Position numbers and translations under genes: made by a program. Under the pieces are notes generated by a model. The model did no database searches, had not been told where the DNA came from, and was given only the letters and a program-made list of their open reading frames with translations. From Alkanindiges illinoisensis DSM 15370 (GTDB lineage: Bacteria; Pseudomonadota; Gammaproteobacteria; Pseudomonadales; Moraxellaceae), in contig NZ_JHUX01000003.1 of assembly GCF_000619845.1 (NCBI RefSeq), forward strand, positions 1,570,064 to 1,602,063: DNA of 32,000 nucleotides. Direction: 5' to 3'. Shown here piece after piece: positions 1-32,000 of this stretch. Position 1 is the first letter of the stretch; each line of letters starts with the position of its first letter.

Positions 1-139
1 CATCAGCATTTGGCGCATGATGACACCGGCTTGAATGCCAGTAATGTTGGCAGCGGCTTCAAATATCTTTGTTTCATCATCGGTCAGATTGATATTGAAG
101 CGGTTGTCACGCTTTTGTTTTCTGATACGCAATGACATG
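1..139 (-). CDS. Early-operon protein, ribbon-helix-helix-like, 3' end outside the window
   Basis: ATG at 137-139 is preceded by an AGGAG RBS that overlaps the stop of the upstream gene. Translation is MSLRIRKQKRDNRFNINLTDDETKIFEAAANITGIQAGVIMRQMLM..., a basic N-terminus followed by a beta-strand/helix pattern typical of RHH/MobC-like DNA binders. This ORF is not in the supplied track because it is truncated. Confidence 0.55.
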
Positions 140-147
140 ACCCGCTC

Positions 148-354
148 CTAGTTCTGACTTTGGTTGGCATTTTGGCTGGCGAGCTTGCCGGCATAGTAAA
201 ACTTGGCAATAACGCTAGAACGGCTGGAATCAGTCTGCTCTGCAATTTCATCCAGAAATTTGAGTTCTTCCGCTGGAAGATACAGGGCGCAACGCTCACG
301 ACCACCTGAGATTTTGCGGGCGCGTGTCGATTTAGGTGAATTTGATGTGCTCAT
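148..354 (-). CDS. Ribbon-helix-helix (CopG/Arc-like) DNA-binding protein, first gene of the leftward early operon (functional analogue of Cro/Cox/Apl)
   Basis: Uses the internal ATG of track ORF 148..399. MSTSNSPKSTRARKISGGRERCALYLPAEELKFLDEIAEQTDSSRSSVIAKFYY has the RHH pattern (beta strand RCALYLP, then helices). It is divergent from the repressor gene across an operator-containing 80-bp region. Confidence 0.65.
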   Translation of the reverse strand: MSTSNSPKSTRARKISGGRERCALYLPAEELKFLDEIAEQTDSSRSSVIAKFYYAGKLASQNANQSQN

Positions 355-378
355 AAGGTAAACTCGGCCATAGTGATA

Positions 379-398
379 TGCTATAGCCCAATATAGCA
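379..398. promoter_or_regulatory. Operator-like inverted repeat in the divergent switch region
   Basis: Perfect 7-bp inverted repeat TGCTATA-GCCCAA-TATAGCA, lying between the divergent RHH gene (start 354) and the repressor gene (start 436). Confidence 0.55.
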
Positions 399-435
399 CA
401 AATATTTACCCTTTCAATAGAAATAGGTGAAATTT

Positions 436-891
436 ATGTCTGATTCTTCAGATTCGAATATACATAGCGCCGAAAACATAGCGCATCGCTTTAATGATGA
501 AGTCGCACGTAATGGCTTTAAGGCTAAAAGTTTGTCGCGTGATATTGGCGCGCATGAAAACACGCTGGGCAATTATGTTCGGGGCAAGGTGCCGGATCAG
601 TGGGTGTATTTAGCCAGGCTGCATGAAAAAGGCATTGATATTCGTTATGTGCTGCTGGGCATTGACCCGGATTTTGCAGGGCTGACCAGTGAAGAAAGCC
701 TGTTATTAAAAGCCTATCGGCAGATTAGTCCTGAAGGACAGGAAGCATTACTGGGTTTGGCCAAGGCCTATGCAAAAGATGGTGAAAAAAATGCAATGGT
801 ACAAAGTCAGTATATGGAACCGCTTGATTATGATTTTGATTTGCCAAGCATTAAAATAAAAACTGATGACGATGAAAAATCGTCTGCATAA
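436..891 (+). CDS. XRE/CI-type helix-turn-helix immunity repressor
   Basis: AGGTGA RBS at 425-430 is 5 nt upstream of the ATG at 436; the track start at 427 is a GTG inside the RBS. HTH segment FKAKSLSRDIGAHENTLGNYVRGK...YLARLHEKGIDIRYVLLG. It is divergent from the early operon, as C is in P2 and CI in 186. Confidence 0.8.
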   Translation: MSDSSDSNIHSAENIAHRFNDEVARNGFKAKSLSRDIGAHENTLGNYVRGKVPDQWVYLARLHEKGIDIRYVLLGIDPDFAGLTSEESLLLKAYRQISPEGQEALLGLAKAYAKDGEKNAMVQSQYMEPLDYDFDLPSIKIKTDDDEKSSA

Positions 892-921
892 AAAAACCGG
901 CAACTGAAAACCAGCTGCCGG
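891..921 (-). terminator. Rho-independent terminator of the 1657->939 minus-strand operon
   Basis: The minus strand reads CCGGCAGCTG-gtttt-CAGTTGCCGG (10-bp stem with one G-U pair) followed by TTTTTTT. It lies between convergent genes. Confidence 0.75.
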
Positions 922-938
922 TGATACCACTGCCTAAA

Positions 939-1520
939 CTAACTATCCAGCTTATGCTGCACTTTCTCTAGCTTTTGCTCAATGTCCAGCAGCTTATACA
1001 CCAGGTCATTTAAATTATAGGTGACCTGCGGATTGTTGACTGCACTCTCCAGTGAGCTGCGCCAGATGCGGATGTTACCCAGTGCCATGTCCAGCAATAA
1101 ACCTGTGTCGGGCTGTTGATTTGGATTGACTTGCATAGTTCTCCTGTTGTCCGTTGATATTGTTTGGGTGCTGGCAATCCTGTTTAACTGAAAACGCCAG
1201 CCTGCCACCGCCTCATCATACCAAATGGAACTTTTTACAACGCCCGTTCCATGAAAAATTGGATATTTTGCGTCAGCCAGTGACGCAGTAATGTCTTCGA
1301 GTGGTGGCAGGGCTGGCTGTTCTTCCTGCTGTAATAAGGCTCTGATTTGCTCATAGGAAATCACCAGAAAACCATGCTGGGTAGTATGGTTGATGTTATG
1401 CCCCTGCTGCACCAGATAATCTACCGCAGCAAACAGTTGTTTAAGCACTTTGCGGCTTTTCTTGCAGGTGGCCATGACACGATCGCCAATGGGAACGTAA
1501 GGAATGATGGAATCGTTCAT
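939..1520 (-). CDS. Hypothetical protein, 193 aa, no recognisable domain
   Basis: Long ORF with backbone-like composition. Its ATG overlaps the stop of the upstream small ORF (ATGA). The C-terminus looks coiled-coil-like (LNDLVYKLLDIEQKLEKVQHKL). Confidence 0.6.
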   Translation of the reverse strand: MNDSIIPYVPIGDRVMATCKKSRKVLKQLFAAVDYLVQQGHNINHTTQHGFLVISYEQIRALLQQEEQPALPPLEDITASLADAKYPIFHGTGVVKSSIWYDEAVAGWRFQLNRIASTQTISTDNRRTMQVNPNQQPDTGLLLDMALGNIRIWRSSLESAVNNPQVTYNLNDLVYKLLDIEQKLEKVQHKLDS

Positions 1521-1657
1521 TTGGCACCTGCCTTGATTTTTGCAATCAGTTTGGCAAGCGTGCTTTGAGGTATAGCAAAGTTGGATGCGGTTAAGCGGTT
1601 ATAGCAGATAAGGTCGAATTGAGTGCTTGGACGTGCAGGTGCCTGACGTAACTTCAT
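1517..1657 (-). CDS. Small (46 aa) putative HTH protein, translationally coupled to the 193-aa ORF
   Basis: MKLRQAPARPSTQFDLICYNRLTASNFAIPQSTLAKLIAKIKAGAK. ATGA overlap with the downstream gene. Below the 60-aa cutoff of the ORF track. The RBS is weak (gagaaaag). Confidence 0.4.
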   Translation of the reverse strand: MKLRQAPARPSTQFDLICYNRLTASNFAIPQSTLAKLIAKIKAGAK

Positions 1658-1688
1658 AGTCTTTTCTCGTGAATAAGTTTTAAGTTAT

Positions 1689-1791
1689 CCACCACCTAAC
1701 TTTCCTAGGGTTAGGGTGGCAGATCAGACAAGGCTAGGAAAACCGCTTCACGAGTCGCGGCCAGCCCGAAGGCTGCCCCATCTGATCCACC
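1689..1791 (-). ncRNA. Structured leader or cis-regulatory element upstream of the small-ORF operon; family not recognised
   Basis: Nested complementarity: 1715-1728 pairs with 1781-1791 (GGTGGcAGATCAGA/TCTGATCCACC). The inner hairpin 1762-1775 reads CAGCC-UUCG-GGCUG on the minus strand, a cUUCGg tetraloop. A second hairpin is 1689-1700/1710-1719. Confidence 0.35.
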
Positions 1792-1816
1792 ATAAAAGTA
1801 TGACCAAACAGTTGGC

Positions 1817-1840
1817 AAAAAAATAGCCGCTGAAGCGACT
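1817..1840 (-). terminator. Rho-independent terminator downstream of the NDT-like gene
   Basis: The minus strand reads AGTCGC-TTCA-GCGGCT followed by ATTTTTTT. It lies about 100 nt after the stop at 1941. Confidence 0.6.
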
Positions 1841-1909
1841 GTGTTTTTGCGCTCGTGAAGTATATGCGAGTTTCCTAGGCTCGACACCGATTTTGCGGTG
1901 TAAATATAT

Positions 1910-1938
1910 CTTGTGTCATAGCGTGCTGTTATGTCAAG
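1910..1938 (+). repeat. Cargo-island 29-bp repeat, copy 1
   Basis: CTTGTGTCATAGCGTGCTGTTATGTCAAG. It ends 2 nt from the stop codon of the NDT-like gene. Confidence 0.9.
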
Positions 1939-1940
1939 GG

Positions 1941-2873
1941 TTATTTAAGTACTATCATCTCCATAATACTAACATCTGGTACAACTGTTCTCACTAACTC
2001 TAAAAGTCTATCAAGCATAAAAGTAAAAGGTTTATCCGAAATAATATAGATACTGTTTACCTCCTTATCAGTGAAAAGAGAGTTATTTTTATTAGAATTT
2101 TCTACTGAAAGTCTTTCAAATTTCAATTTAGGATATATTGAATTTATTTGAGTTTTAAAACTTTCATATTCTATATCAGTTAAATATCTTTGTAATATTA
2201 ATCTTAAAATATTCTTTTTGACTTCAATATCATAACTTGATTTGGCTAAGTTTTGATTAGATTGATTTAAAGTAACCTTAGATAATAAATTTTCAATATT
2301 GTCTAACCGATCTAATAGATATCGTTGTGGATCATTCTCCTGAATTTGATCTCTAATAATTTTAGTACTTGAAACCCTATGAACTGGATTATCAGCTTCA
2401 GTTTGGCTCATAGCATCAACAACCGCAGCTTCTAATGCTGGTTTTAATTCTTCAGCTCCATGCATATCATTAAAATAAAAAATGGTACGTTCAGCAGCAA
2501 TATCAAATGGTAGTTTAGTACCATGCTCCGCTAAAACTACAACTGGCTTATTGGTGCAATGCCGTACTGCCAGCTCATACATGACATTGGGATTAAGCTC
2601 ACTTAAATTAGCAATTACCAAATCATCAAATAGGACACGTTCGATAACCTGGCGAGGAATTGAGCCAGCCACTGAGATTTCGTGAGCTGCAACAACATCA
2701 AAACCCATTTCCTTAAGAACAGGGCGCATTACTGCTCTAATTAGTCCATCGGCCGCCCTACGGGTTGGCGTGTTGTCTCCACCAATTGGGGTGACAATAA
2801 AGCATTTTTTCTTTTCATTAACAGCATCATCACTCATGTTTTCATTATTGGTAGCTGATTTTTTTGCAGTCAC
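1941..2873 (-). CDS. Nucleoside 2-deoxyribosyltransferase-like (TIR-related Rossmannoid) domain protein with an uncharacterised C-terminal domain; candidate defence effector
   Basis: GTG start with a GGA-type RBS 9 nt upstream. N-terminal motifs are KKCFIVTPIGG, DLVIANLSELNPNVMYELAV, NKPVVVLA and LPFDIAAERTIFY. These match the CFVIMPFG...ADLS..NPNV.YELG...KP...PFD pattern I associate with NDT-like folds. The C-terminal ~135 aa are AT-rich-encoded with no recognisable motif. Confidence 0.6.
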   Translation of the reverse strand: MTAKKSATNNENMSDDAVNEKKKCFIVTPIGGDNTPTRRAADGLIRAVMRPVLKEMGFDVVAAHEISVAGSIPRQVIERVLFDDLVIANLSELNPNVMYELAVRHCTNKPVVVLAEHGTKLPFDIAAERTIFYFNDMHGAEELKPALEAAVVDAMSQTEADNPVHRVSSTKIIRDQIQENDPQRYLLDRLDNIENLLSKVTLNQSNQNLAKSSYDIEVKKNILRLILQRYLTDIEYESFKTQINSIYPKLKFERLSVENSNKNNSLFTDKEVNSIYIISDKPFTFMLDRLLELVRTVVPDVSIMEMIVLK

Positions 2874-2904
2874 TTGCTTGTATCCTAATGATCTTTAAAA
2901 ATAG

Positions 2905-2933
2905 CTTGTTCCATAGTGTGCTGTTATGTCAAG
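2905..2933 (+). repeat. Cargo-island 29-bp repeat, copy 2
   Basis: CTTGTTCCATAGTGTGCTGTTATGTCAAG, 26/29 identical to copy 1. It lies in the divergent intergenic region between modules A and B. Confidence 0.9.
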
Positions 2934-2978
2934 ATTTGGACAGAATATTTTGATAAAACTAATAATTTTGGGGTAAGT

Positions 2979-3776
2979 ATGGCGTTTATTGGGGCAATTT
3001 TATTTTTATTCCTTATAGCCGTAGTGGTGGCTACAATAGCTGGTCTAATTAATCCAAAAACGCTTGTAAACAAGAAAAAGCCTGAACAGGTTATGAGCCG
3101 AAAACAGATTCTAGGTAGTGGGATAGCCCTTTGTTTATTGCTGGTTGCTTTGATTGGTGTAGTAGCAAGTGATGATAAGGTGAAAGTAACAACTGCCATT
3201 AACGATCCTAGCCCAGCTGCCGCAAAGAAAGAAGAACCTACTAATCTGACAGTCCAAAATAATAACAATCCTACTGAACCTGCCAGTTCTCAATCTGCTG
3301 AAACAGTCCAGCAAAACCTTGGTATAACCGCTGAAGAATTTCGGCAAAAATTTAATGCTGAACTAAAAAAAGCTGATCTATCAGAATTAAGACCTGTAGC
3401 CGAATTTGATATTAAGCAAGGTGAAAAAGCAGGTACTTTTAATGTGATGTTTGGTGATGCCTTAGGCATGATGGGTGTAGTCGATAAACAGAATAATTTG
3501 AAAAGCCTTATTTTTATGATGGGTAGAACTGATGAGGGTGAAAAAGTTGGACTAAATTTATTATTGCTTAGTTCCTTTGCGGCCCGTGTATTAAATCCAG
3601 AAGTTGAACATGAAAAAACAGCGACTACCTTAATGGGACTTATCCAAAAGGCCATGAAAGATCCTACAGCGGAAAATAATACGCATAGTCAGGTCTTTGG
3701 GAATACTAAATATTACTCATTAGCCAGTCCCTACACGGGTTTATGGGTTGGGTTTGAGCCTGTGGAGAAAAAATAA
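2979..3776 (+). CDS. Membrane protein: two N-terminal TM helices, low-complexity linker, ~160-aa periplasm-facing globular domain
   Basis: I prefer ATG 2979 (MAFIGAILFLFLIAVVVATIAGL...) to the track GTG 2916, which lies inside repeat copy 2. TM1 is followed by a KKK-rich loop, then TM2 (ILGSGIALCLLLVALIGVVA), then a P/N/S/Q-rich linker. The stop overlaps the next start (TAATG). Confidence 0.7.
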   Translation: MAFIGAILFLFLIAVVVATIAGLINPKTLVNKKKPEQVMSRKQILGSGIALCLLLVALIGVVASDDKVKVTTAINDPSPAAAKKEEPTNLTVQNNNNPTEPASSQSAETVQQNLGITAEEFRQKFNAELKKADLSELRPVAEFDIKQGEKAGTFNVMFGDALGMMGVVDKQNNLKSLIFMMGRTDEGEKVGLNLLLLSSFAARVLNPEVEHEKTATTLMGLIQKAMKDPTAENNTHSQVFGNTKYYSLASPYTGLWVGFEPVEKK

Positions 3777-4759
3777 TGATGACAGATCCAGGGTTTTTAA
3801 GTGAATTGGAGTATAGCCGAAAGCATGAGGAAGAAGTGCAACGATTAAAGGTTGAGGCTGAACTTAATCAATTTAATAAAGAAAAAGATAAGATCCTAGC
3901 CAATATAAACAGGTTGGAAAACAAATTAAGTAAAGTAAGTAAAAATTCAACTCTCATAAAGAGTATTGATAGTATTAAGCATGCTATGAATACTGAACTT
4001 AAACATCCTCGTGAAGTAACACTATTAAATCTGCTTGAATCAAGCATTCATAGTATGAATCTAGAAATTGAAAAATATGAAAATAAACTTCTTTTGGAAA
4101 ATGCCTTATTTGGAAACATTATTGCAGAATTAGCCGCAATTGAAAGGGCTTTTCAAATTTATAGAGAATCTGCATATTCATTTGAAAAATTTGTCAGGGA
4201 ACCATTTAATGTTTCTTTTACAGAAGTTTTGGAAGAATTGAGGTCATTTAGAAAATCGAGAGCTATTGCTGATAATGCGCGCACAGAAGATTTTTATAAT
4301 AAGGCTGTTGAAAAATATACTGACCTAGAAAGTATATATAGAAAATATTTTTATAATGGAGTAGCTATTCTTGCGGCTTTTACACTTTTATCTACTTTAT
4401 TTAAAAAATACTTTATTGAATATGATGTGATTAGCACAATTGATTTTTGGATAATTAAAGGTTCTGCCCTAATTATTGGAATAACTTTAATTACTTATTT
4501 TTTGAAACAGTCTACTCGTTATCAGAAACTGGCTGACCAAAACTATCAGACACAAGTTGAGTTACAAGCTTATCCTAGCTATATAGAAAGTATTCCTACC
4601 AGTGAAGCAGCTGCTATCCGTAAAGAACTGGCCCTTAAATATTTTGGTCGTGAAATCGATAAAGACAGCAGTAGTTCTAATGAATTACTCACTGACCAGA
4701 TTCAAGCGAGTACTGAGCTGGTCAAAGCATCTATAGAAATTATTAAAAATGTAAAATGA
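3776..4759 (+). CDS. Coiled-coil protein with a C-proximal TM hairpin (possible SLATT-like 2TM effector)
   Basis: About 200 aa of heptad-like, E/K/L/N-rich sequence. Two TM helices follow (GVAILAAFTLLSTLF and GSALIIGITLITYFL), then an ~80-aa tail. Translationally coupled to the upstream gene. Confidence 0.7.
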   Translation: MMTDPGFLSELEYSRKHEEEVQRLKVEAELNQFNKEKDKILANINRLENKLSKVSKNSTLIKSIDSIKHAMNTELKHPREVTLLNLLESSIHSMNLEIEKYENKLLLENALFGNIIAELAAIERAFQIYRESAYSFEKFVREPFNVSFTEVLEELRSFRKSRAIADNARTEDFYNKAVEKYTDLESIYRKYFYNGVAILAAFTLLSTLFKKYFIEYDVISTIDFWIIKGSALIIGITLITYFLKQSTRYQKLADQNYQTQVELQAYPSYIESIPTSEAAAIRKELALKYFGREIDKDSSSSNELLTDQIQASTELVKASIEIIKNVK

Positions 4760-4767
4760 ATATGCTT

Positions 4768-4796
4768 CTTGTGTCTTAGCGTGCCGCTATGTCATT
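4768..4796 (+). repeat. Cargo-island 29-bp repeat, copy 3
   Basis: CTTGTGTCTTAGCGTGCCGCTATGTCATT, 24/29 identical to copy 1. It starts 9 nt after the stop of the module B operon. Confidence 0.85.
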
Positions 4797-4865
4797 ATTC
4801 AAAAATAATTTAGTATTTTTTTGGATTGACATACTTATAAAACATTCAAAAGTCAAGGAATGACG

Positions 4866-5075
4866 ATGAAAAAAGCATTTTTATTAAGTTTAATTATTGG
4901 CATTAATCCTGCTGCTATGGCAGCAACTTGCAAAGACTTTAAGACGCATGCACAGGCTCAGGCTTATTTTGATGCCAAAAAGCCGGGTTATAAGCGACTG
5001 GATCGGGACAAGGATGGTAGCGCCTGTGACTGCTTGCCTGGTGGTAATGGGAAGAAATGTCCAAAGCGGAAGTAA
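4866..5075 (+). CDS. Secreted Excalibur calcium-binding domain miniprotein
   Basis: AAGGA RBS at 4855-4859 favours ATG 4866 over 4860. Signal peptide MKKAFLLSLIIGINPAAMAA, then CKDF..HAQAQAYF....YKRLDRDKDGSACDC, the Excalibur DxDxDGxxC(E/D) motif. Confidence 0.75.
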   Translation: MKKAFLLSLIIGINPAAMAATCKDFKTHAQAQAYFDAKKPGYKRLDRDKDGSACDCLPGGNGKKCPKRK

Positions 5076-5171
5076 CTGCTGCGGAGCAATTAAACTAATT
5101 CGTAACCATAATAGTAATGCCTATAATCGGCAGTGTCAGTAATTTTTAAAAGGTTAATTTAAAAGGATTTA

Positions 5172-7886
5172 ATGATGAACAACTTGAAATTTTCTGAATT
5201 AAAGAAAGAACTTCAAAATAAGATGCGTACTGTCAAAGATTTAGCTCGATATATAGATAAGAAGCGAGAATTACATCCGAATTATAGTATTTTTCTAGGT
5301 TCAGGTGCTTCTGTGACATCTGGCATTAAAAGTGGAGGGCAACTTGTTAATGAGTGGAGAAGAGAAATATATGAACAAACAAGTGAAAAACCATATCTTA
5401 TAAGCATCGAAGATGCGAATAAAACTCTTAGTGAGGAGGACGCTCTTAAGCAAGCTGTTCAATATCTTATTCATGAACAAGGTTCTTGGTACAATCCACT
5501 TAATGAATATTCATCCTTATTTGAAAGAAAATTTGATTTACCTTCACAACGTAGAAGGTTTGTTGAAAAATTAGTAGATGAAAAATTACCATCTATCGGT
5601 TACCTGTATCTTATCTCATTAATAAACGAAGGTTACTTTAATACAATTTTTACAACTAATTTTGATGATTTGATTAATGAAGCTTTCTACCAGTTTTCCA
5701 ATATTAGACCACATGTTTGTGCTCATGACTCATCAATAGGAAGCTTATCTGTATTATCAAATAGACCTAAAATTATCAAACTTCATGGTGATTATCTTTT
5801 TGACGATATTAAAAATACATTAAGAGAAACTGAAAGCTTAGAAACTAATACTAAAGAGAAATTTATTGAATTTTCTAAAGAAAGTGGCTTAATTATTGTT
5901 GGCTATTCAGGCCAAGATCGTTCAGTAATGGACGTAATAAATTATTTACTCCAGCAAGAAGAATATTTGAAAAATGGTTTATATTGGTGTTTTAGAAAAG
6001 ATGATGAGATCCCGCATGAAATTAGAAAAATTCTATGGAGAGATAAAGTTTATTGTATTGAAATCGAAGGATATGATCAATTTCTAGCAGATATATTTCT
6101 ACAATTAAATTGCAAATTATCTTTAACTGATAAAGATTTCCATTCTAAACGTGATAAATGTATTAAAAGTTTCATTGAAGATAATTTTAATCTAAATACA
6201 AGTGAAGCCATTTCAATGCATATTGATGAAATGAAGGCATTAAATAGAAGGCAAGATATTTCAAAATTTTTGCAACAGATAAAGGAAACAGATCTCAATC
6301 AATTAGATCAAATAGAATTTAAAAGTATGCTTGAAATAGAAACTTTGATAAAAGAAAGAAAATTTGATGAAGTTGATAAAAAAATTGATCTAAAGCTTAT
6401 GGAAAAATTAAATCCTGATCTTAAAGAAAATTATTTTAAATTAAAATTAAAAAGTTATAAAATGGCTGGAGAAACAAAAAAGGCTATAGACTTTATTGAT
6501 GAGTTAATCAGAACTGACCCTTTCAATCAAAAGTTATTAACATGGAAGTTGGATTTTTTAGAAGCATTAAAGGAGCAGATTTATACTGTTAAAGATTTTT
6601 GTGATAAAAACCAATACTCTTATACAATACGAAATAAATTAGTACGTTTACTTTTAGAATATAATGAATCCAGAAATAAGTGGCATGAAACTATTACTCT
6701 TGAAAATTCTTTAGATATTATAAATGATAGCTTAAAAATTAATTCTAGCTTAGATAATAGTGCTTATACTCTTAAGTTAAAAATATTAGATCAAATTAAT
6801 AAGAAAAAACTTAAAACTAGTCTAAAACCATCAGAGAAAGATAAATTAAATCAGCCTTTAAAGGACTTAATAAAATCTGCAGAATCAATTAATCCTATAC
6901 ATCTTCAATTCCTCGAATTAAAAAAACTCTTTGCATTAATAACTCTTGATCCATCTGATATTAATAATTATATACAAGCATGTACATTTACTAACTCTTA
7001 CGTTAATAATAAATTACAAATAAATCTTTTAGAGAAGCAAGTTGCTTTTTACAATACTTTATTATTACATAAAGATTTTAATGATATAGAAACAACTAAC
7101 AACATTGAGAAATTTTTTCTACACGCAGGCAATTATCCACATGCAAATACTAATATGATATTTATAATAGGCAAAGTTGATTTTTTAATTGATAATAAAA
7201 GAGATTTAGGTCAAGGTATCGAAATACTATATGATTTATTAGAAAATGTTGAATCTTATAGTTATATTTTAAGTATTATTAATAGAATTTGTTATGATAA
7301 TTCATCTAATAATTTAAGTCGTATTAAAGTTAAATTGGAAAGTATTAAAAATCTTATTGATCACGAAGATTATTTAATATGTTACTGCTATATTACTGAT
7401 GCAGAGAATAAAACATTAGACGCACTTAAATTTTTTATTGAGTTTTTTGAAATTCAAACAAACAAGCAGAATCATCTTATTAAATACACTTATTTCTTAC
7501 TTAAAGCTGAAAAATACGATGAAGTAATTAAGCTTTATGAAGATAATAAAAGCCTTATACGTGAACTAAGTCATGAAAATCAAGTAGTTCTATCTATAAA
7601 TCTTATTTGTGCTGAAAAGGCTAAGTATCAAGTTCTCAGTGAATCTAATAAATCATTGTTAAATCAATATAGATCTTCAAAGCCTACTCCATCAATATTT
7701 ATATGTGCTTTAGCCCTTTTAGAAGATAATCAGGCTTTTCATCATATGAAAGAACGTATCTATAAAGAATTTAGTGCATATTATGAACTGCGTAGCTGGC
7801 CAGCGATGAGTGAGAAATTTAAGAAACTATTAGATCAAGAATTTCAGAATATTACTGTAGATCCCATATCTAAGTTAGCAAGTTAA
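5172..7886 (+). CDS. SIR2_2-family (ThsA/DSR-type) NAD-binding domain fused to a ~600-aa TPR-like helical-repeat region; candidate NAD+-depleting defence protein
   Basis: N-terminal motifs appear in the order seen in ThsA/DSR SIR2 domains: IFLGSGASVTSGI (G-x-G NAD loop), IFTTNFDDLINEAF (TTN[YF]D), IIKLHGDYLFD (catalytic His) and LIIVGYSGQDRSV. The remainder is K/N/L/I-rich with TPR-like segments (e.g. AIDFIDELIRTDPFNQKLL). Confidence 0.8.
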   Translation: MMNNLKFSELKKELQNKMRTVKDLARYIDKKRELHPNYSIFLGSGASVTSGIKSGGQLVNEWRREIYEQTSEKPYLISIEDANKTLSEEDALKQAVQYLIHEQGSWYNPLNEYSSLFERKFDLPSQRRRFVEKLVDEKLPSIGYLYLISLINEGYFNTIFTTNFDDLINEAFYQFSNIRPHVCAHDSSIGSLSVLSNRPKIIKLHGDYLFDDIKNTLRETESLETNTKEKFIEFSKESGLIIVGYSGQDRSVMDVINYLLQQEEYLKNGLYWCFRKDDEIPHEIRKILWRDKVYCIEIEGYDQFLADIFLQLNCKLSLTDKDFHSKRDKCIKSFIEDNFNLNTSEAISMHIDEMKALNRRQDISKFLQQIKETDLNQLDQIEFKSMLEIETLIKERKFDEVDKKIDLKLMEKLNPDLKENYFKLKLKSYKMAGETKKAIDFIDELIRTDPFNQKLLTWKLDFLEALKEQIYTVKDFCDKNQYSYTIRNKLVRLLLEYNESRNKWHETITLENSLDIINDSLKINSSLDNSAYTLKLKILDQINKKKLKTSLKPSEKDKLNQPLKDLIKSAESINPIHLQFLELKKLFALITLDPSDINNYIQACTFTNSYVNNKLQINLLEKQVAFYNTLLLHKDFNDIETTNNIEKFFLHAGNYPHANTNMIFIIGKVDFLIDNKRDLGQGIEILYDLLENVESYSYILSIINRICYDNSSNNLSRIKVKLESIKNLIDHEDYLICYCYITDAENKTLDALKFFIEFFEIQTNKQNHLIKYTYFLLKAEKYDEVIKLYEDNKSLIRELSHENQVVLSINLICAEKAKYQVLSESNKSLLNQYRSSKPTPSIFICALALLEDNQAFHHMKERIYKEFSAYYELRSWPAMSEKFKKLLDQEFQNITVDPISKLAS

Positions 7887-7909
7887 TATTTTCTATAAAA
7901 TTTATTCAA

Positions 7910-7934
7910 AGCCCTGCTCATCTTTAGTAGGGCT
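7910..7934. terminator. Hairpin between the convergent SIR2 gene and ogr (bidirectional terminator candidate)
   Basis: AGCCCTGCT-catcttt-AGTAGGGCT, a 9-bp stem with one G-U pair. There is a partial T-run on the minus side only. Confidence 0.5.
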
Positions 7935-7942
7935 AACAGTAA

Positions 7943-8203
7943 TTATATAGCTGCATGCTCATCATTCGCGGCCTTACGCTGGGCCGTGATCTCATCATGG
8001 GTTTTAAGCTGGATGCCAGGACGTGGACAGGCGCTTGGTGAAATCTGGTGAGTGATTTCCAAATTACCGCCACAAGTAAAACCGCATAGATAATTACTGC
8101 ACTGAAACCAAAGCTGGCGCAAAAGTGGATGCGCTTCCCTGCTGCTTCGTATAGTCATTGATGCTGCACAATGTGGGCATTGAAATTTGCTACGTTGAGC
8201 CAT
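7943..8203 (-). CDS. ogr: Ogr/Delta-family zinc-finger late transcription activator
   Basis: Motif CPHC...(22 aa)...QCSNYLCGFTC gives a four-Cys pattern like P2 Ogr. Its position immediately after gene D is as in P2. Confidence 0.9.
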   Translation of the reverse strand: MAQRSKFQCPHCAASMTIRSSREAHPLLRQLWFQCSNYLCGFTCGGNLEITHQISPSACPRPGIQLKTHDEITAQRKAANDEHAAI

Positions 8204-8278
8204 AATTTTCTGTAACTTTCCATTGATTATTTTATGTCCATCATAGCAAATTCGGTTAAATATTTGTGCTTTAAGTAA

Positions 8279-9535
8279 CTATTTTTTAGATTTTTTTAAA
8301 GCAAGTAGCTCCTGATATTCCCGATTGGCCGCAATGGTTGCGGTCTGCTGGGTTTTATACAGATAGGTCAGGCGTTTTGGTGTGGTCTGATCGCCTGAGG
8401 TGACCTTTGCGGTGTTTTTACCATCCTTATAATATGCCACGATGCCTGTATAGTCGCCGCGTTCATCATCAATCAGTTCACTTAAATCATCGGCATCTGG
8501 CAAATACACTTCCAGCTCAACTGACGTGCTATAGCCATTATCGGCATCCAGTGTATGCACTACCCGTGAACCCAGCCAGATAATATCGTCAATTTCCGGT
8601 TTTAAGCCTAAAAATGATATTGGCATTTCCGGGATAAGTTCTGGCTCACCTTTGGCCAGGTTATAACTAAAAGTGCAGGATTTGCTTTTTAACCGGTTAA
8701 ATTCGGCCTGGGCAGTATGCAGTGCACTATTTTTATCGCGCTGGATGTTGCGAAGTTCCTTGGTGTTTTCATTGGACTGGCCAATGGTGACTTTCTGCTT
8801 TTCGGCCTTGTCCGGATCATAGTAATAACAGGTCACACCGCTAATATCATCTGCCCCATCAGTATCTGAAAAACGGTGGCTGTCGCCCTGGATACGACGA
8901 ATAATAAATTCTGGAAATGACACACCGCTGGCAGTCTGGCCAGTACCTTTAGGCATAAATAGCAAATTGCCATTTTTGACCGTGGCGATTGCGTCGTGTT
9001 CATCGGCGATCCGGGTGATCAGATTGGCATCAGATTCATTCTGATCGATATGAGCCAGCACGATTTTTGCCAGTTCAGGATTAACTTTAGGCGTTAGGCC
9101 CTGTTCGCCAGCAATGGCGGTGATGATGTCGCCAATGGTTTTTTTATCAAAACTACGTTCCTTTTTTTTCTTAAACGTACTTTTTAAATCCGCTGAAGCG
9201 CCACGAATGGTGATGATATCCGGTGCACCGCTATGCTCACGCTCCTTGACCAGATATTTACCTTTATAGACAAGGCCAGTATCACTCCACCCGATCCAGG
9301 CGTGGATCTCTGCCCCCTTGGGTGGAATTTCCAGTTTTCCGTCATGGTCTGACAGCTCAATGTCGATACTATCTGCTTCAATCCCACGATTATCAGTGAT
9401 GGTCATCCGCATTAAGCGTGTGGCCACCAGTGCGCCAATGTCCTTATCATTAACAACCAGGCGGTAAATTGCCTGTGGGTAGGATTCACCCAGCTGCTGG
9501 TTTACATAGGAAATAGCATTACTGACTAAACTCAT
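8279..9535 (-). CDS. D: Tail protein D (late control gene D protein)
   Basis: 418 aa. Follows U with a 4-nt overlap and is the last gene of the FI operon, as in P2. Confidence 0.85.
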   Translation of the reverse strand: MSLVSNAISYVNQQLGESYPQAIYRLVVNDKDIGALVATRLMRMTITDNRGIEADSIDIELSDHDGKLEIPPKGAEIHAWIGWSDTGLVYKGKYLVKEREHSGAPDIITIRGASADLKSTFKKKKERSFDKKTIGDIITAIAGEQGLTPKVNPELAKIVLAHIDQNESDANLITRIADEHDAIATVKNGNLLFMPKGTGQTASGVSFPEFIIRRIQGDSHRFSDTDGADDISGVTCYYYDPDKAEKQKVTIGQSNENTKELRNIQRDKNSALHTAQAEFNRLKSKSCTFSYNLAKGEPELIPEMPISFLGLKPEIDDIIWLGSRVVHTLDADNGYSTSVELEVYLPDADDLSELIDDERGDYTGIVAYYKDGKNTAKVTSGDQTTPKRLTYLYKTQQTATIAANREYQELLALKKSKK

Positions 9536-29784: not shown

Positions 29785-30836
29785 ATCCATTTTCATCAGC
29801 AAAAAATCTGCTGTCCACAGCATTAAGTCATTTACCAGCAACAGTACAGCCTGCCCTACCCAGCCATAAAGCAGAAGCATTTACCTTTGGTGATCCAGTA
29901 CCAGTGAATGATGGCCGTGAGCTGCTGGACTATATGGAGTGCTGGTTTAATGGCCGTTTTTACGAACCACAGGTCAGCATGAATGGCTTGGCCAAAACCT
30001 TTAAAGCCACGCCATATTTATCCAGTGGCATTATTTTCAAGCGTAATTTTCTGGCCAATCTGTTTATTCCCCACCGATTGCTAAAACGTAAAGCCTTTGA
30101 ACAGGTAGCACTGGACTTTATCTGGTGTGGTAATGCGTATCTTGAGAAAATCCCATCACGTCTGGGATCAACCATGAGCTATCAGCCAGCCCTGGCTAAA
30201 TATATGCGCCGTGGTGAATATGATGACCAGTTCTTTATGTTGAATCTAAGCCATACCGGTTATCAGGAATATGAGTTCAAGCCTGGCAGTGTTTGCCATA
30301 TCAAGGAAACGGACATCGATCAGGAAATTTACGGCACACCAGAATATATTTCAGTGTTACAAAGTGCTTGGCTTAATGAAGCCGCTACTTTATTCCGGCG
30401 CAAGTATTACAACAATGGCAGCCATGCCGGTTTTATTATGTATGTGAATGACCCAGCCAATGATCCTGATGACATTACCGCATTACGTCAGGCCTTAAAG
30501 GAAAGTAAAGGTCCAGGCAACTTCCGTAACCTGTTCTTCTATAGTCCCAATGGCAAGAAGGATGGCATCCAGATTATTCCAGTATCAGAAATCGCGGCCA
30601 AGGATGATTTTGCCCATATTAAATCCATATCACGTGATGATGTATTGGCAGGCATCCGGGTGCCACCACAACTGATGGGCATTATCCCCAGTAACACAGG
30701 TGGCTTTGGAGATCCAAAGACAGCACGTGATGTATTCTACCAGAATGAAATTATTCCTCTGCAGTCACGCTTGATGCAGTTTAATGAATGGGCAGGTGAA
30801 GAAATCATCCGGTTTAAGGAATTGCCAACGCTATAA
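29781..30836 (+). CDS. Q: Portal protein Q
   Basis: 351 aa with an ATGA overlap with P. It is the last gene before the cos-proximal region, as in P2. Confidence 0.85.
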   Translation: MNPFSSAKNLLSTALSHLPATVQPALPSHKAEAFTFGDPVPVNDGRELLDYMECWFNGRFYEPQVSMNGLAKTFKATPYLSSGIIFKRNFLANLFIPHRLLKRKAFEQVALDFIWCGNAYLEKIPSRLGSTMSYQPALAKYMRRGEYDDQFFMLNLSHTGYQEYEFKPGSVCHIKETDIDQEIYGTPEYISVLQSAWLNEAATLFRRKYYNNGSHAGFIMYVNDPANDPDDITALRQALKESKGPGNFRNLFFYSPNGKKDGIQIIPVSEIAAKDDFAHIKSISRDDVLAGIRVPPQLMGIIPSNTGGFGDPKTARDVFYQNEIIPLQSRLMQFNEWAGEEIIRFKELPTL

Positions 30837-30850
30837 GCAGAACCAATAAA

Positions 30851-30880
30851 AAATCCCTCGATATTTGAGGGATTTTTTTT
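30851..30880 (+). terminator. Rho-independent terminator of the P-Q operon
   Basis: AAATCCCTC-gatattt-GAGGGATTT followed by a T-run. Confidence 0.85.
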
Positions 30881-30936
30881 GCCCAAAGAAAATGCACCAC
30901 AATGGGGCATCAGGCAACCAGCTGACCTGGCTCCGG

Positions 30937-30955
30937 GCAGTTGCCCCACCCCACC
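30937..30955. other. Candidate cos cohesive-end core
   Basis: GCAGTTGCCCCACCCCACC lies about 100 nt after the Q stop. It matches 12/19 positions, in the same orientation relative to Q, of the P2 cos sequence as I recall it (complement of GGCGAGGCGGGGAAAGCAC). It is the only GC-rich patch in this interval. Confidence 0.35.
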
Positions 30956-31203
30956 TGCGTTGTCTAAATAGGGCTGTTTTACTGCAAGACCAGATAAGCC
31001 AAAAAATTAGGGAAAAGTACGCTGGTATTAGGGCTTTTAAGAGAAATATATGTTTTTTCTGTACTGCATTTTACGACACCACCCTACATTCGCTGAACTG
31101 ACAAAAATTCGCTCATTTTAGGCAGTCTTACAAAGCATATTGGTATCACCAGTAAAAGATAAAAGACCATAGGAATGTTTGTAATGAGGGATTAGCAAGA
31201 ATT

Positions 31204-31458
31204 TGAAGTAATAAAGTAATAACTAGACTTAAACTGCTGATTTTATTAATAAACATATATTACATTTTGAAGTATTTTTTTGTAATTTTATAAGTAATAT
31301 TTTATAAGTATCTGTTTTTACTATAAATATATATTAGTAGGTATTGCCTTTTTATACAGTAATAAGTTACTTCAATATTACCTCATTGTTACTTCACTGA
31401 TTAGCTGCATCTTATTGTTTATATTATGGTATTTAAAAAATATTACTTTATTACCTCA
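31204..31458. repeat. AT-rich region with opposed arrays of a ~9-bp iteron (TGAAGTAAT / RTTACYTCA)
   Basis: Plus-orientation copies are at 31204-31212, 31214-31220, 31268-31275, 31291-31298 and 31305-31310. Inverted copies are at 31366-31374, 31377-31385 and 31388-31396 (exact 11-bp phasing), plus 31442-31450 and 31450-31458. A 12-bp direct repeat ATTTTATAAGTA occurs at 31285-31296 and 31299-31310. Confidence 0.6.
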
Positions 31459-31628
31459 AAAAAACGCTAGTCCCCAACTTTTTTCAGACTCCCAAAATCT
31501 GGCTGTTTTGGTGGTTTTTCATTCAAAACTTTTAAAAACGATGGGAATGGAATGGGAATAGAAAGGCAGCTACTAGCAACGTACTAATACACTAACTTGC
31601 TGTTTTACAATGCTTTATAATCAGGAAA

Positions 31629-31705
31629 TGGGGTGGCTAATGGGACTCGAACCCACGACAACCGAGATCACAACCCGGGGCTCTACCAACTGAGCTATAG
31701 CCACC
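31629..31705 (-). tRNA. tRNA-His (GUG), with G-1 and encoded CCA
   Basis: The reverse complement GGTGGCTATAGCTCAGTTGGTAGAGCCCCGGGTTGTGATCTCGGTTGTCGTGGGTTCGAGTCCCATTAGCCACCCCA folds as a cloverleaf. It is near-identical to enterobacterial tRNA-His. Confidence 0.95.
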
Positions 31706-31763
31706 ATAGACAATGCAAGATGCATTATTTTGATGCTTTAATATAAAAGCTGGCGGCATGATG

Positions 31764-31840
31764 TGGCGCGCCTGACAGGATTCGAACCTGTGACCACCCG
31801 CTTAGAAGGCGGGTGCTCTATCCAACTGAGCTACAGGCGC
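31764..31840 (-). tRNA. tRNA-Arg (UCU)
   Basis: The reverse complement is GCGCCTGTAGCTCAGTTGGATAGAGCACCCGCCTTCTAAGCGGGTGGTCACAGGTTCGAATCCTGTCAGGCGCGCCA. The anticodon loop is CTTCTAA. Confidence 0.95.
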
Positions 31841-31908
31841 ATGATTGCTGATGCCTAACAAGTGTTTAGGTTATCACGCGGCTGCACTACAATAAACCGC
31901 CGATTAAC

Positions 31909-31985
<77 letters not shown>

Positions 31986-32000
31986 ATCATCTCAGCTTGT

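What the first reader, a model, noticed from the sequence alone, without database searches (positions are those of the whole stretch)
5172..7886. Module C: 904-aa SIR2_2 domain fused to a long TPR-like helical-repeat region (DSR-like single-protein NADase candidate)
All four hallmark segments of the prokaryotic defence-type SIR2 domain are present in order: GSGAS NAD loop, TTNFDD, KLHGD with the catalytic His, and VGYSGQD. These are the segments seen in ThsA, DSR1/DSR2 and SIR2-HerA.

The domain is followed by ~600 aa of K/N/L-rich helical repeats with no SLOG, HerA, pAgo or STAND NTPase partner in the neighbourhood. This architecture is closest to the defence-associated sirtuins, in which the C-terminal repeat region senses a phage protein and releases NADase activity.

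The protein is shorter than the DSR proteins as I recall them, and its tail is very divergent and low-complexity. It may therefore be a distinct subtype with a different trigger.
Basis: partly seen in the sequence, partly recalled or inferred. Interest (0 to 1): 0.7.

Follow-up and report, generated by a model that had tools for sequence, protein, structure and literature searches.

The report
Prophage-borne SIR2–TPR candidate anti-phage NADase
A P2-like prophage of Alkanindiges illinoisensis carries one low-GC gene that fuses an NAD-cleaving SIR2 domain to a long TPR repeat domain; it most likely kills infected cells by destroying NAD+, works like the known DSR proteins, and belongs to a separate, untested family.

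Summary
The ORF at 5172..7886 (+) encodes 904 aa. All four SIR2 motifs are present. Asn163 and His205 are invariant in 52 homologues and align with the proven NADase dyad N142/H186 of Geobacter SPARSA Sir2.

Residues ~325-900 form a confident all-helical TPR superhelix. There is no P-loop, SLOG, APAZ, HerA or pAgo.

The "DSR-like" reading is right for architecture and likely mechanism, but not for family:
- No PADLOC Dsr1 or Dsr2 model matches the protein.
- Its SIR2 domain is closest to pAgo-associated Sir2-APAZ (E 1e-63).
- Its TPR domain is found only in this family: 307 clusters among 1.84 billion representatives, all with the same ~870-aa layout in the best 150.

Context supports defence:
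- Here and in Acinetobacter bohemicus the gene lies in a low-GC cargo slot beside gpD of a P2-like prophage.
- In E. coli it is the sole cargo of the P2 gpQ-gpA defence hotspot.
- No neighbour is conserved.
- The effector is 66% identical across homologues, the sensor only 24-28%.

I found no experimental test of the family (PHROG 14359, "unknown function").

Verdict: a probable single-protein abortive-infection NADase, and a new variant of a known kind. Interest is moderate.

The parts
5172..7886 (+). SIR2-TPR gene (904 aa from the first ATG; 903 aa as annotated from the ATG at 5175), including the stop codon
   Evidence: ORF list and translation. It is 100% identical to WP_051526663.1. It matches phrog_14359 over its full length at 2e-187.
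5163..5167 (+). Shine-Dalgarno-like AAGGA upstream of the tandem ATGs
   Evidence: Read directly from the sequence. The spacing fits the second ATG (5175) better than the first.
5172..6131 (+). N-terminal SIR2 (SIRim-type) Rossmann domain, aa 1-320, with a helical insertion at about aa 55-152
   Evidence: Pfam SIR2_2 covers aa 158-290. PADLOC Aga_SIR2 models cover aa 38-324 at E 1e-63. PDB SPARSA Sir2 matches at 2e-23 for the single protein and 1e-28 for the family profile. AF2 shows strands at 38-42, 158-161, 181-183, 200-203, 239-243, 270-274 and 293-297. Foldseek's top hit is 8jkz_A.
5298..5312 (+). GSGAS NAD-binding glycine loop (aa 43-47)
   Evidence: Motif position. G43, G45, A46 and S47 are invariant in 52 homologues.
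5652..5669 (+). TTNFDD motif (aa 161-166) with the catalytic Asn163
   Evidence: T161-D166 are invariant. N163 aligns with GsSir2 N142, whose N142A mutant loses NADase activity (PMC10781750).
5778..5792 (+). KLHGD motif (aa 203-207) with the catalytic His205, followed by a low-confidence loop at aa 208-217
   Evidence: K203, H205, G206 and D207 are invariant. H205 aligns with GsSir2 H186, and H186A abolishes NADase activity. pLDDT is below 50 at aa 208-217.
5898..5918 (+). VGYSGQD motif (aa 243-249)
   Evidence: Motif position. G244, Y245, G247 and D249 are invariant.
6144..7883 (+). C-terminal TPR-like alpha-solenoid (aa 325-904, about 33 helices); putative sensor and regulatory domain
   Evidence: AF2 pLDDT is 88.6 and pTM 0.79, all helical. 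Foldseek returns Ctr9, OGT, SPINDLY, APC/C, Ski3 and IFT-A TPR superhelices. The family profile hits the TPR proteins IFT139 (5e-5) and CTPR (2.5e-3). Homologues give Pfam TPR_1, TPR_2, TPR_12 and TPR_14 hits. Identity to homologues is only 20-32%.
7910..7934 (.). Imperfect hairpin (AGCCCT, 13 nt, AGGGCT) between the convergent SIR2-TPR and ogr genes; a possible bidirectional terminator (weak)
   Evidence: Read from the sequence. The consensus terminator scan did not call it.
1941..7886 (.). Low-GC cargo island (30.8% GC against 45.7% for the prophage backbone) inside the P2-like prophage, between the early/regulatory region and ogr-gpD; the SIR2-TPR gene is its last gene
   Evidence: Composition. 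Prophage layout: int, Toprim replication protein, repressor, cargo, ogr, gpD, gpU, tape measure and onward.
7943..9535 (-). Flanking prophage late genes ogr (7943..8203) and gpD (8279..9535), which define the right edge of the cargo slot
   Evidence: Pfam Ogr_Delta at 5.5e-15 and Phage_GPD.

Best explanation
The gene encodes a self-contained anti-phage abortive-infection protein carried as cargo by a P2-like prophage.

Proposed mechanism:
1. The N-terminal SIR2 domain is an NAD+ glycohydrolase that is kept inactive in uninfected cells.
2. The C-terminal TPR superhelix acts as sensor and autoinhibitor.
3. During infection by a competing phage, the TPR domain binds a phage-made protein. An abundant structural protein is the most likely ligand.
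4. Binding changes the conformation and/or oligomeric state so that the SIR2 active site opens. The site comprises Asn163, His205 and the flexible loop after HGD.
5. NAD+ is then hydrolysed and the infection aborts, which protects the lysogen population and its prophage.

Shown here by computation: the SIR2 fold and an intact, invariant catalytic dyad; the TPR fold; single-gene autonomy; location in a prophage hotspot; horizontal-transfer signature; a conserved effector with a fast-diverging sensor.

Inferred, not shown: NADase activity, autoinhibition, direct sensing of a phage protein, oligomerisation, and the abortive outcome.
For: 1. Effector.
- The SIR2 domain matches the pAgo-associated Sir2 models at E 1e-63 and the solved SPARSA Sir2 at 2e-23 (single protein) or 1e-28 (profile).
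- Foldseek's top hits are SPARSA Sir2, then DSR2 and ThsA. All three are experimentally established NADases.
- N163 and H205 align with GsSir2 N142 and H186, whose alanine mutants lose NADase activity.
- Both residues and the glycine loop are invariant in 52 homologues.
- There is no CxxC zinc module of the kind found in deacetylase sirtuins.

2. Sensor.
- The C-terminal 580 aa are a high-confidence TPR solenoid.
- This region is 24-28% identical across the family, against 66% for the SIR2 domain. That asymmetry is expected of an arms-race sensor.

3. Autonomy.
- In E. coli the orthologue is the only cargo between gpQ and gpA.
- In A. lanii and another Acinetobacter it is a lone insertion among housekeeping genes.
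- No neighbouring protein is shared between loci.

4. Defence context.
- The E. coli position is the P2 old/tin hotspot, shown to hold anti-phage systems (PMC9122126).
- Here and in A. bohemicus the gene sits in the slot next to gpD of P2-like prophages.
- The gene has 24-32% GC against 38-50% for its flanks in four homologue loci, and 26.6% against 45.7% for the prophage backbone here.
- It is rare and patchy: 19 of 5426 complete E. coli genomes carry it.

5. Precedent.
- DSR2 is a SIR2 plus alpha-solenoid protein triggered by the tail tube.
- EcDsr1 is a SIR2 plus TPR protein triggered by the major capsid protein.
Against: - No experiment on any member of this family was found. PHROGs lists it as 'unknown function'.
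- The P2 and P4 hotspots also carry non-defence cargo.
- No Dsr1, Dsr2, ThsA or PDC-S65 model covers the whole protein. The mechanism therefore rests on analogy, not on family membership.
- GsSir2 R190, mutated in the SPARSA study as Y89A, R190A and the double mutant (one search shows only the figure legend, not the outcome), is Leu209 here.
- Oligomeric state and trigger could not be addressed with these tools.
- The promoter scan around the gene is no better than shuffled sequence. Independent transcription from the upstream same-strand genes is therefore not shown in this locus.
Confidence: 0.68

Rival explanations
1. The SIR2-TPR gene is one component of a multi-gene cassette with the upstream same-strand genes: the membrane/coiled-coil pair at 2916..4759 and the small Excalibur protein at 4860..5075. 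A further possibility is a Thoeris-like pairing with the weakly TIR-like protein at 1941..2873. Under this reading it does not work alone.
For: - Four consecutive genes share the + strand within one low-GC island.
- The 310-aa protein has a weak PADLOC TIR-effector hit at 3e-7.
- No convincing promoter is called upstream of 5172.
Against: - None of these neighbours is found next to homologues in E. coli, A. lanii, A. bohemicus or a further Acinetobacter locus. BLASTP across the Acinetobacter loci found no shared neighbours.
- A terminator-like hairpin at 4777-4789 follows the two-gene pair.
- The TIR-like gene is divergent and 2.3 kb away. It shows no similarity to the AC1 prophage TIR.
- The protein has no SLOG or other nucleotide-signal-binding domain.
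Confidence: 0.08
2. It is not an immune NADase but a lysogenic-conversion or housekeeping sirtuin-type enzyme, either a protein deacylase or an ADP-ribosyltransferase. The TPR domain would recruit a host or phage substrate, for example to modulate host physiology or prophage maintenance.
For: - SIR2-fold enzymes include deacylases and ADP-ribosyltransferases.
- TPR domains are generic protein-binding scaffolds.
- P2 hotspots also carry non-defence cargo.
- Some Acinetobacter copies are chromosomal, between housekeeping genes.
Against: - The domain belongs to the SIR2_2 immune clade (Pfam PF13289) and lacks the zinc-ribbon CxxC module of deacylase sirtuins.
- Its nearest relatives by sequence and structure are all phage-defence NADases: SPARSA, DSR2 and ThsA.
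- The distribution is rare, patchy, low-GC and linked to mobile elements.
- The sensor half evolves far faster than the enzyme half.
Confidence: 0.12
3. It is a degenerate or orphan relative of the SPARSA Sir2-APAZ protein. It has lost its Argonaute partner and is either non-functional or works with a pAgo encoded elsewhere.
For: - The best HMM and PDB matches are Sir2-APAZ proteins.
- A related lone Vibrio prophage protein carries a 'pAgo__SIR2APAZ' note in its GenBank record.
Against: - The similarity stops at residue ~325, where the models and the solved chains go on into APAZ.
- The C-terminus is a confident TPR solenoid, not an APAZ fold.
- The full-length 860-930-aa architecture is conserved across ~300 clusters at 50% identity, with invariant catalytic residues. 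Decay would not produce this.
- No pAgo is present in any of the loci examined.
Confidence: 0.03

Closest known systems
DSR1 (defence-associated sirtuin 1; EcDsr1 WP_029488749.1)
   Same: A single protein with an N-terminal SIR2 NADase and a C-terminal multi-TPR sensor, and no NTPase. EcDsr1 is triggered by a phage major capsid protein, and its NADase domain is required for cell death (PMC12803255). In working logic this is the nearest match.
   Different: - The two PADLOC Dsr1 profiles (1275 and 1227 positions) do not hit this 904-aa protein at E<=10.
- This SIR2 domain is SPARSA-type.
- The Dsr1 sensor is reported to be shared with Avs7 STAND proteins and with other effectors. This TPR domain was found only in ~870-aa SIR2 proteins among the best 150 of 307 hits.
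- I could not obtain a Dsr1 sequence for a direct profile-profile comparison.
DSR2 (Bacillus subtilis defence-associated sirtuin 2)
   Same: An N-terminal SIR2 NADase followed by a long alpha-solenoid in one polypeptide. Foldseek aligns the full-length model to DSR2 chains at E 3e-8. DSR2 is activated by binding of a phage protein to the solenoid.
   Different: - There is no Dsr2 HMM hit and no sequence match to DSR2 chains with the family profile.
- TM-scores are only ~0.2.
- The C-terminal model alone retrieves TPR proteins and no DSR2 in the top 50.
- DSR2 is ~1000 aa, with MID and CTD domains.
SPARSA Sir2-APAZ (Geobacter sulfurreducens GsSir2, PDB 8jkz/8in8) with short pAgo
   Same: This is the closest SIR2 domain by sequence (E 1e-63 against the PADLOC models; 2e-23 to 1e-28 against the PDB) and by fold (Foldseek E 2e-10). 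It has the same Asn/His dyad and HGD loop.
   Different: There is no APAZ domain and no pAgo partner. Nucleic-acid-guided sensing is replaced by a TPR protein-binding domain.
PADLOC candidate PDC-S65 (for example the Bacillus albus plasmid 586-aa SIR2 protein)
   Same: A single SIR2-domain candidate defence protein of the same broad SIR2 clade. This protein hits the PDC-S65 model partially, at 1e-25.
   Different: A true member scores 2e-204 over the whole 592-position model. Here only the SIR2 part matches, and the protein is ~300 aa longer with a TPR tail.
Other SPARSA-type SIR2 fusions on mobile elements (Vibrio prophage proteins of 612-624 aa; Photobacterium plasmid SIR2-TPR of 716 aa; Haloferax virus TPR protein)
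   Same: The same SIR2 clade (24-47% identity over the domain), found without pAgo on prophages, plasmids or viruses. Some have canonical TPRs.
   Different: They have different, non-homologous C-terminal regions and different lengths. None is covered by the C-terminal profile of this family within the best 150 hits.

Membership tests
DSR1 | Match to the family profile (PADLOC Dsr1 models PDLC02183 and PDLC04166) | tested here: not met
   No Dsr1 hit for the window protein or its E. coli orthologue at E<=10. Both models are present in the library, because they give weak hits to other SIR2 proteins.
DSR1 | N-terminal SIR2 NADase with an intact catalytic Asn/His | tested here: met
   N163 and H205 are invariant and align to the proven dyad of GsSir2. 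Enzymatic activity was not tested.
DSR1 | C-terminal Avs7-type bilobed TPR sensor, homologous to the sensors of Avs7 STAND proteins | tested here: inconclusive
   The TPR fold is confirmed. The C-terminal profile retrieved only ~850-930-aa SIR2 proteins and fragments among the best 150 of 307 hits, with no proteins of 1200 aa or more. No Dsr1 or Avs7 sequence was available for a direct comparison, and the supplementary list of Avs7-sensor proteins is not held.
DSR2 | Match to the Dsr2 profile or to DSR2 sequences | tested here: not met
   No PADLOC Dsr2 hit. The family profile against PDB sequences finds no DSR2 at E<=1.
DSR2 | MID plus CTD solenoid resembling that of DSR2 | tested here: not met
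   The full-length Foldseek hit has TM ~0.2. The C-terminal model alone gives TPR proteins and no DSR2 in the top 50.
SPARSA (Sir2-APAZ plus short pAgo) | SPARSA-type SIR2 domain | tested here: met
   PADLOC Aga_SIR2 models at E 1e-63. PDB 8jkz at 2e-23 (protein) and 1e-28 (profile). Foldseek's top hit.
SPARSA (Sir2-APAZ plus short pAgo) | APAZ domain C-terminal to SIR2 | tested here: not met
   Model alignments end at about aa 325. The C-terminus is an all-helical TPR region.
SPARSA (Sir2-APAZ plus short pAgo) | Adjacent short pAgo gene | tested here: not met
   No pAgo or PIWI gene is present in the window neighbourhood or in any homologue locus.
Thoeris ThsA | SIR2 fused to a SLOG/STALD signal-binding domain, with a ThsB TIR partner | tested here: not met
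   There is no ThsA model hit and no SLOG domain. The only TIR-like neighbour is a weak hit 2.3 kb away on the other strand, and it is not conserved in other loci.
SIR2-HerA and SIR2-STAND (Avs5-type) | HerA ATPase partner, or a central STAND NTPase domain | tested here: not met
   No Walker A motif. No strands after residue 325. No HerA/DUF87 neighbour.
PDC-S65 (PADLOC candidate) | Full-length match to the PDC-S65 models | tested here: not met
   1e-25 over the SIR2 region only, against 2e-204 over the full model for a true member.
PHROG 14359 (phage protein family, unknown function) | Full-length profile match | tested here: met
   E 2e-187, covering aa 11-882 of the protein and positions 8-851 of the 864-position profile.
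Generic abortive-infection NADase defence protein (functional class) | Phage protection and infection-dependent NAD+ depletion | not testable with these tools
   This needs plaque assays and NAD+ measurement. No published test of this family was found.

The most novel reading that the evidence does not exclude
This family would be a third, independent lineage of single-protein defence sirtuins (a de facto "DSR3"). A SPARSA-clade SIR2 NADase has swapped the APAZ/pAgo nucleic-acid sensor for a private TPR protein sensor. The family spreads as single-gene cargo of P2-like prophage hotspots across Gammaproteobacteria and recognises a phage protein different from the DSR1 (capsid) and DSR2 (tail tube) triggers. 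If so, one effector clade has been rewired from guide-RNA/DNA sensing to protein pattern recognition.
Probability: 0.45. Interest if true: 0.6.

Novelty: new variant of a known kind. Interest (0 to 1): 0.45.

Why it matters
If the protein is active, it adds a compact (~2.7 kb) single-gene NAD+-depletion system to the defence repertoire. Current PADLOC models miss it or mislabel it as an orphan Sir2-APAZ.

It would also give a natural experiment in effector-sensor modularity: the same SIR2 clade coupled either to Argonaute (nucleic-acid sensing) or to TPRs (protein sensing).

It is directly testable because E. coli carries close orthologues as sole cargo of the P2 hotspot.

It also points to a second cargo slot, between the early region and ogr/gpD, in P2-like prophages of Moraxellaceae. 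That slot could be mined for further systems.

Tried and rejected
1. A word-indexed homologue search with the C-terminal 588 aa alone returned only the protein itself. The low-complexity K/N/L-rich words swamped the candidate list. I replaced it with an exhaustive profile search.

2. I looked for alternative effectors fused to this TPR sensor. The shorter hits (590-800 aa) turned out to be N-terminally truncated SIR2 proteins, not new architectures.

3. I tried to obtain a Dsr1 sequence for direct comparison.
- The preprint's supplements are not held.
- Gao et al. 2020 is not held.
- The single SIR2 system tested by Rousset et al. (pFR88, P4 hotspot) is PDC-S25 and unrelated.

4. Literature searches for 'SIR2-TPR' and 'PDC-S65', and for combinations of SIR2, TPR, NADase and prophage, found no description of this family.

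5. The promoter and terminator scan was uninformative: 20 promoter-like sites against 20.4 in shuffles.

6. I considered a Thoeris-like pairing with the weak TIR-like neighbour and a link to the AC1 2TM-1TM-TIR system. There is no similarity to the AC1 TIR and no PDB relative.

7. The BFVD viral fold library gave only generic giant-virus TPR proteins, none at E<=1e-3.
Full report
**1. Observation**

- The ORF at 5172..7886 (+) is real: 904 codons opening with ATGATG. It is identical to NCBI WP_051526663.1, a 903-aa 'SIR2 family protein' of Alkanindiges illinoisensis, which is annotated from the second ATG. An AAGGA at 5163-5167 fits the second ATG better.
- Pfam SIR2_2 matches aa 158-290 at E 1.2e-14.
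- The gene is 26.6% GC. About 8% of random codons would be stops at that composition, so an open frame of this length cannot be chance (my estimate: about 1e-35).

**2. Anatomy**

I predicted the structure with AlphaFold2 on a 52-sequence family alignment. Mean pLDDT is 84.7.

- Residues 1-320 form a Rossmann-type SIR2 domain with seven strands and a helical insertion.
- From residue 325 to the end there are only helices, about 33 of them.
- A separate model of residues 320-904 is more confident still, with pLDDT 88.6 and pTM 0.79.
- The structural neighbours of the C-terminal model are long TPR superhelices: Ctr9, the OGT and SPINDLY TPR domains, APC/C subunits, Ski3 and IFT-A.
- The family profile also hits TPR proteins by sequence: IFT139 at 5e-5 and a consensus TPR at 2.5e-3.
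- More distant family members give explicit Pfam TPR hits.
- There is no Walker A motif, no CxxC zinc module, and no SLOG or APAZ domain.

**3. Which SIR2**

The N-terminal domain is not closest to DSR, ThsA or HerA-type SIR2.

- Its best matches are the pAgo-associated Sir2-APAZ proteins. PADLOC Aga_SIR2 models score E 1e-63 over aa 38-324.
- The only PDB sequence relatives are the Geobacter SPARSA Sir2 chains, at 2e-23 for the protein and 1e-28 for the family profile. They are also the top Foldseek hits.
- In that alignment Asn163 pairs with GsSir2 N142, and His205 with H186.
- N142A and H186A abolish SPARSA NADase activity (PMC10781750).
- Both residues, the glycine loop and the flanking motif residues are invariant across 52 homologues.
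- The loop just after HGD (aa 208-217) is the only internal segment with pLDDT below 50. The equivalent H186-D188 loop is proposed to gate catalysis in SPARSA. I treat this as a hint only.

**4. The family**

- The protein belongs to a coherent full-length family of 860-930 aa, with 34-48% identity at 95-100% coverage.
- Members occur in Acinetobacter, Escherichia, Klebsiella, Serratia, Pantoea (on a plasmid), Aeromonas, Xenorhabdus and other Gammaproteobacteria.
- PHROGs holds it as phrog_14359, 'unknown function'. The match is full-length at 2e-187.
- The two halves evolve very differently. The SIR2 region averages 66% identity, the TPR region 24-28%.
- I ran an exhaustive HMMER search with a C-terminal-only profile against 1.84 billion representative proteins. 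It found just 307 proteins at E<=1e-3 and 192 at E<=1e-10.
- All of the best 150 are either ~850-930-aa proteins with the sensor at residues ~310-870, or fragments.
- Seven of the ten shorter hits I checked are N-terminally truncated SIR2 proteins or show only TPR repeats; the other three are one 803-aa protein with a complete SIR2 domain and two with no Pfam hit. None carries a different effector.
- As far as HMMER can see, this TPR sensor is private to this SIR2 family.

**5. Context**

The window is a P2-like prophage. Its order is integrase, Toprim replication protein, repressor, a low-GC cargo island (1941-7886; 30.8% GC against 45.7%), then ogr, gpD, gpU, tape measure and the remaining late genes through to terminase and portal. 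The SIR2-TPR gene is the last cargo gene and converges on ogr.

Homologue loci show the following.

- In Acinetobacter bohemicus the gene occupies the same slot, directly beside gpD of a P2-like prophage.
- In E. coli two orthologue clusters sit as the only cargo between portal gpQ and replication gene gpA. This is the old/tin hotspot that Rousset et al. showed to be a reservoir of anti-phage systems (PMC9122126). Their tables list single 'SIR2_2' cargo at P4 hotspot loci and SIR2_2 + DUF87 pairs at P2 loci, and the legend of their P2 hotspot figure lists SIR2 among its domain labels.
- In A. lanii and a further Acinetobacter the gene is a lone insertion among housekeeping genes.
- No neighbouring protein is shared between loci.
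- In every locus the gene is much lower in GC than its flanks, for example 31.8% against 49.6% in E. coli.
- Only 19 of 5426 complete E. coli genomes carry it.

Together these are the hallmarks of an autonomous, horizontally mobile defence gene.

**6. Mechanism**

The best-supported reading is a single-protein abortive-infection NADase. The SIR2 domain is held inactive. The TPR superhelix binds a phage protein. The resulting conformational or oligomeric change opens the active site, and NAD+ is depleted.

- Computational evidence covers the effector's integrity, the sensor fold, autonomy, context, and the split between a conserved effector and a variable sensor.
- NADase activity, autoinhibition, the trigger and the abortive outcome are inferred by analogy with three systems.
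  - DSR2 is triggered by the tail tube binding its solenoid.
  - EcDsr1 uses a TPR sensor triggered by the major capsid protein.
  - SPARSA is activated by tetramerisation of its complex (abstract of PMC11452484).

I give this reading 0.68.

Rivals:

| Rival | Probability | Main reason against |
|---|---|---|
| Multi-gene cassette with the upstream genes | 0.08 | The neighbours are not conserved in other loci |
| Non-immune sirtuin-type enzyme | 0.12 | Disfavoured by clade, distribution and evolutionary pattern |
| Orphan or decayed Sir2-APAZ | 0.03 | The C-terminus is a conserved TPR fold, not APAZ |

**7. Comparison with known systems**

EcDsr1 (SIR2 plus TPR) is the nearest analogue. In family terms it is neither DSR1 nor DSR2.

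- PADLOC holds two Dsr1 models and one Dsr2 model, as shown by weak hits to other proteins. None hits this protein or its E. coli orthologue at E<=10.
- The family profile finds no DSR2 sequence in the PDB.
- The full-length Foldseek match to DSR2 has TM ~0.2. It disappears from the top 50 when only the C-terminal domain is searched.
- It is not SPARSA, because it has no APAZ domain and no pAgo partner.
- It is not ThsA, SIR2-HerA or SIR2-STAND.
- It is not PDC-S65. Here only the SIR2 part matches, at 1e-25, whereas a true member scores 2e-204.
- Whether its TPR domain is a very remote relative of the Avs7/Dsr1 sensor could not be settled. I could not obtain those sequences.

**8. Novelty and score**

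I found no experimental or named description of this family. The only single SIR2 gene that Rousset et al. tested (pFR88) is an unrelated PDC-S25 protein.

The principle, a SIR2 NADase fused to a repeat sensor, is well established, so a specialist would not be surprised. The new elements are:

- a SPARSA-clade SIR2 re-coupled to a private TPR sensor;
- the recurrent use of P2-like prophage cargo slots;
- the fact that current models miss the family.

I rate it a new variant of a known kind, with interest 0.45. The most novel reading is an independent third lineage of defence sirtuins with its own trigger. I give that a probability of 0.45, and it would merit interest of about 0.6.

Noticed in passing
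window 1941..2873 (-): A 310-aa protein at the left edge of the same low-GC island. It has a weak PADLOC 'TIR effector' hit (3e-7, aa 38-132) and strong hits to PHROGs of unknown function (phrog_10872 at 1e-61). It has no Pfam, NCBIfam or PDB sequence relative and no similarity to the AC1 prophage TIR. It may be a second defence candidate.
   Followed up: partly
window 2916..3776 (+) and 3776..4759 (+): Two genes with overlapping stop and start. One is a 286-aa membrane protein (phrog_23546, unknown function). The other is a 327-aa protein that appears, from reading its sequence, to have a coiled-coil N-terminal half and hydrophobic segments near aa 195-245; this was not tested with any tool. 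A terminator-like hairpin at 4777-4789 follows them. No known family matches, and they are not found next to SIR2-TPR homologues elsewhere.
   Followed up: partly
window 4860..5075 (+): A 71-aa protein with an Excalibur calcium-binding domain (Pfam 2.6e-6). Its hydrophobic N-terminus (MTMKKAFLLSLIIGINPAAMAA) looks like a signal peptide, though I ran no predictor. It lies directly upstream of the SIR2-TPR gene and is not conserved beside homologues.
   Followed up: partly
window 1..8300 plus L014 and L017: In this Alkanindiges prophage and in an Acinetobacter bohemicus P2-like prophage, the cargo slot lies between the early/regulatory region and ogr/gpD, not at the E. coli P2 gpQ-gpA site. This may be a separate hotspot in P2-like phages of Moraxellaceae.
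   Followed up: partly
window 30837..32000: No sizeable ORF follows the portal gene (which ends at 30836), and GC falls to 37.7% in 31001-32000. A cluster of tRNA-His, tRNA-Arg and tRNA-Pro genes lies at 31629-31985 (-). This is probably the prophage's right boundary and attachment region.
   Followed up: partly
L012 1354..3228 and L013 3938..5776 (Vibrio cyclitrophicus prophage-like elements PQ189367.1 and PQ189330.1): Lone SPARSA-type SIR2 proteins of 612-624 aa, 40-47% identical to this protein's SIR2 domain. They have unrelated C-terminal regions and no pAgo, and they lie near the integrase of small mobile elements.
   Followed up: partly
L002-L004 10584..10808 (-) (E. coli P2 hotspot loci): A 74-aa ORF that overlaps the 3' end of the E. 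coli SIR2-TPR gene on the opposite strand. It is called in some assemblies and not in others, and has no Pfam hit on record.
   Followed up: no
L011 975..3125 (Photobacterium toruni plasmid pCECT9189-3): A 716-aa protein with a SPARSA-type SIR2 domain (24% identity to this one) fused to strong canonical TPRs (TPR_12 at 1e-31). This looks like an independent SIR2-TPR fusion outside the family studied here.
   Followed up: partly
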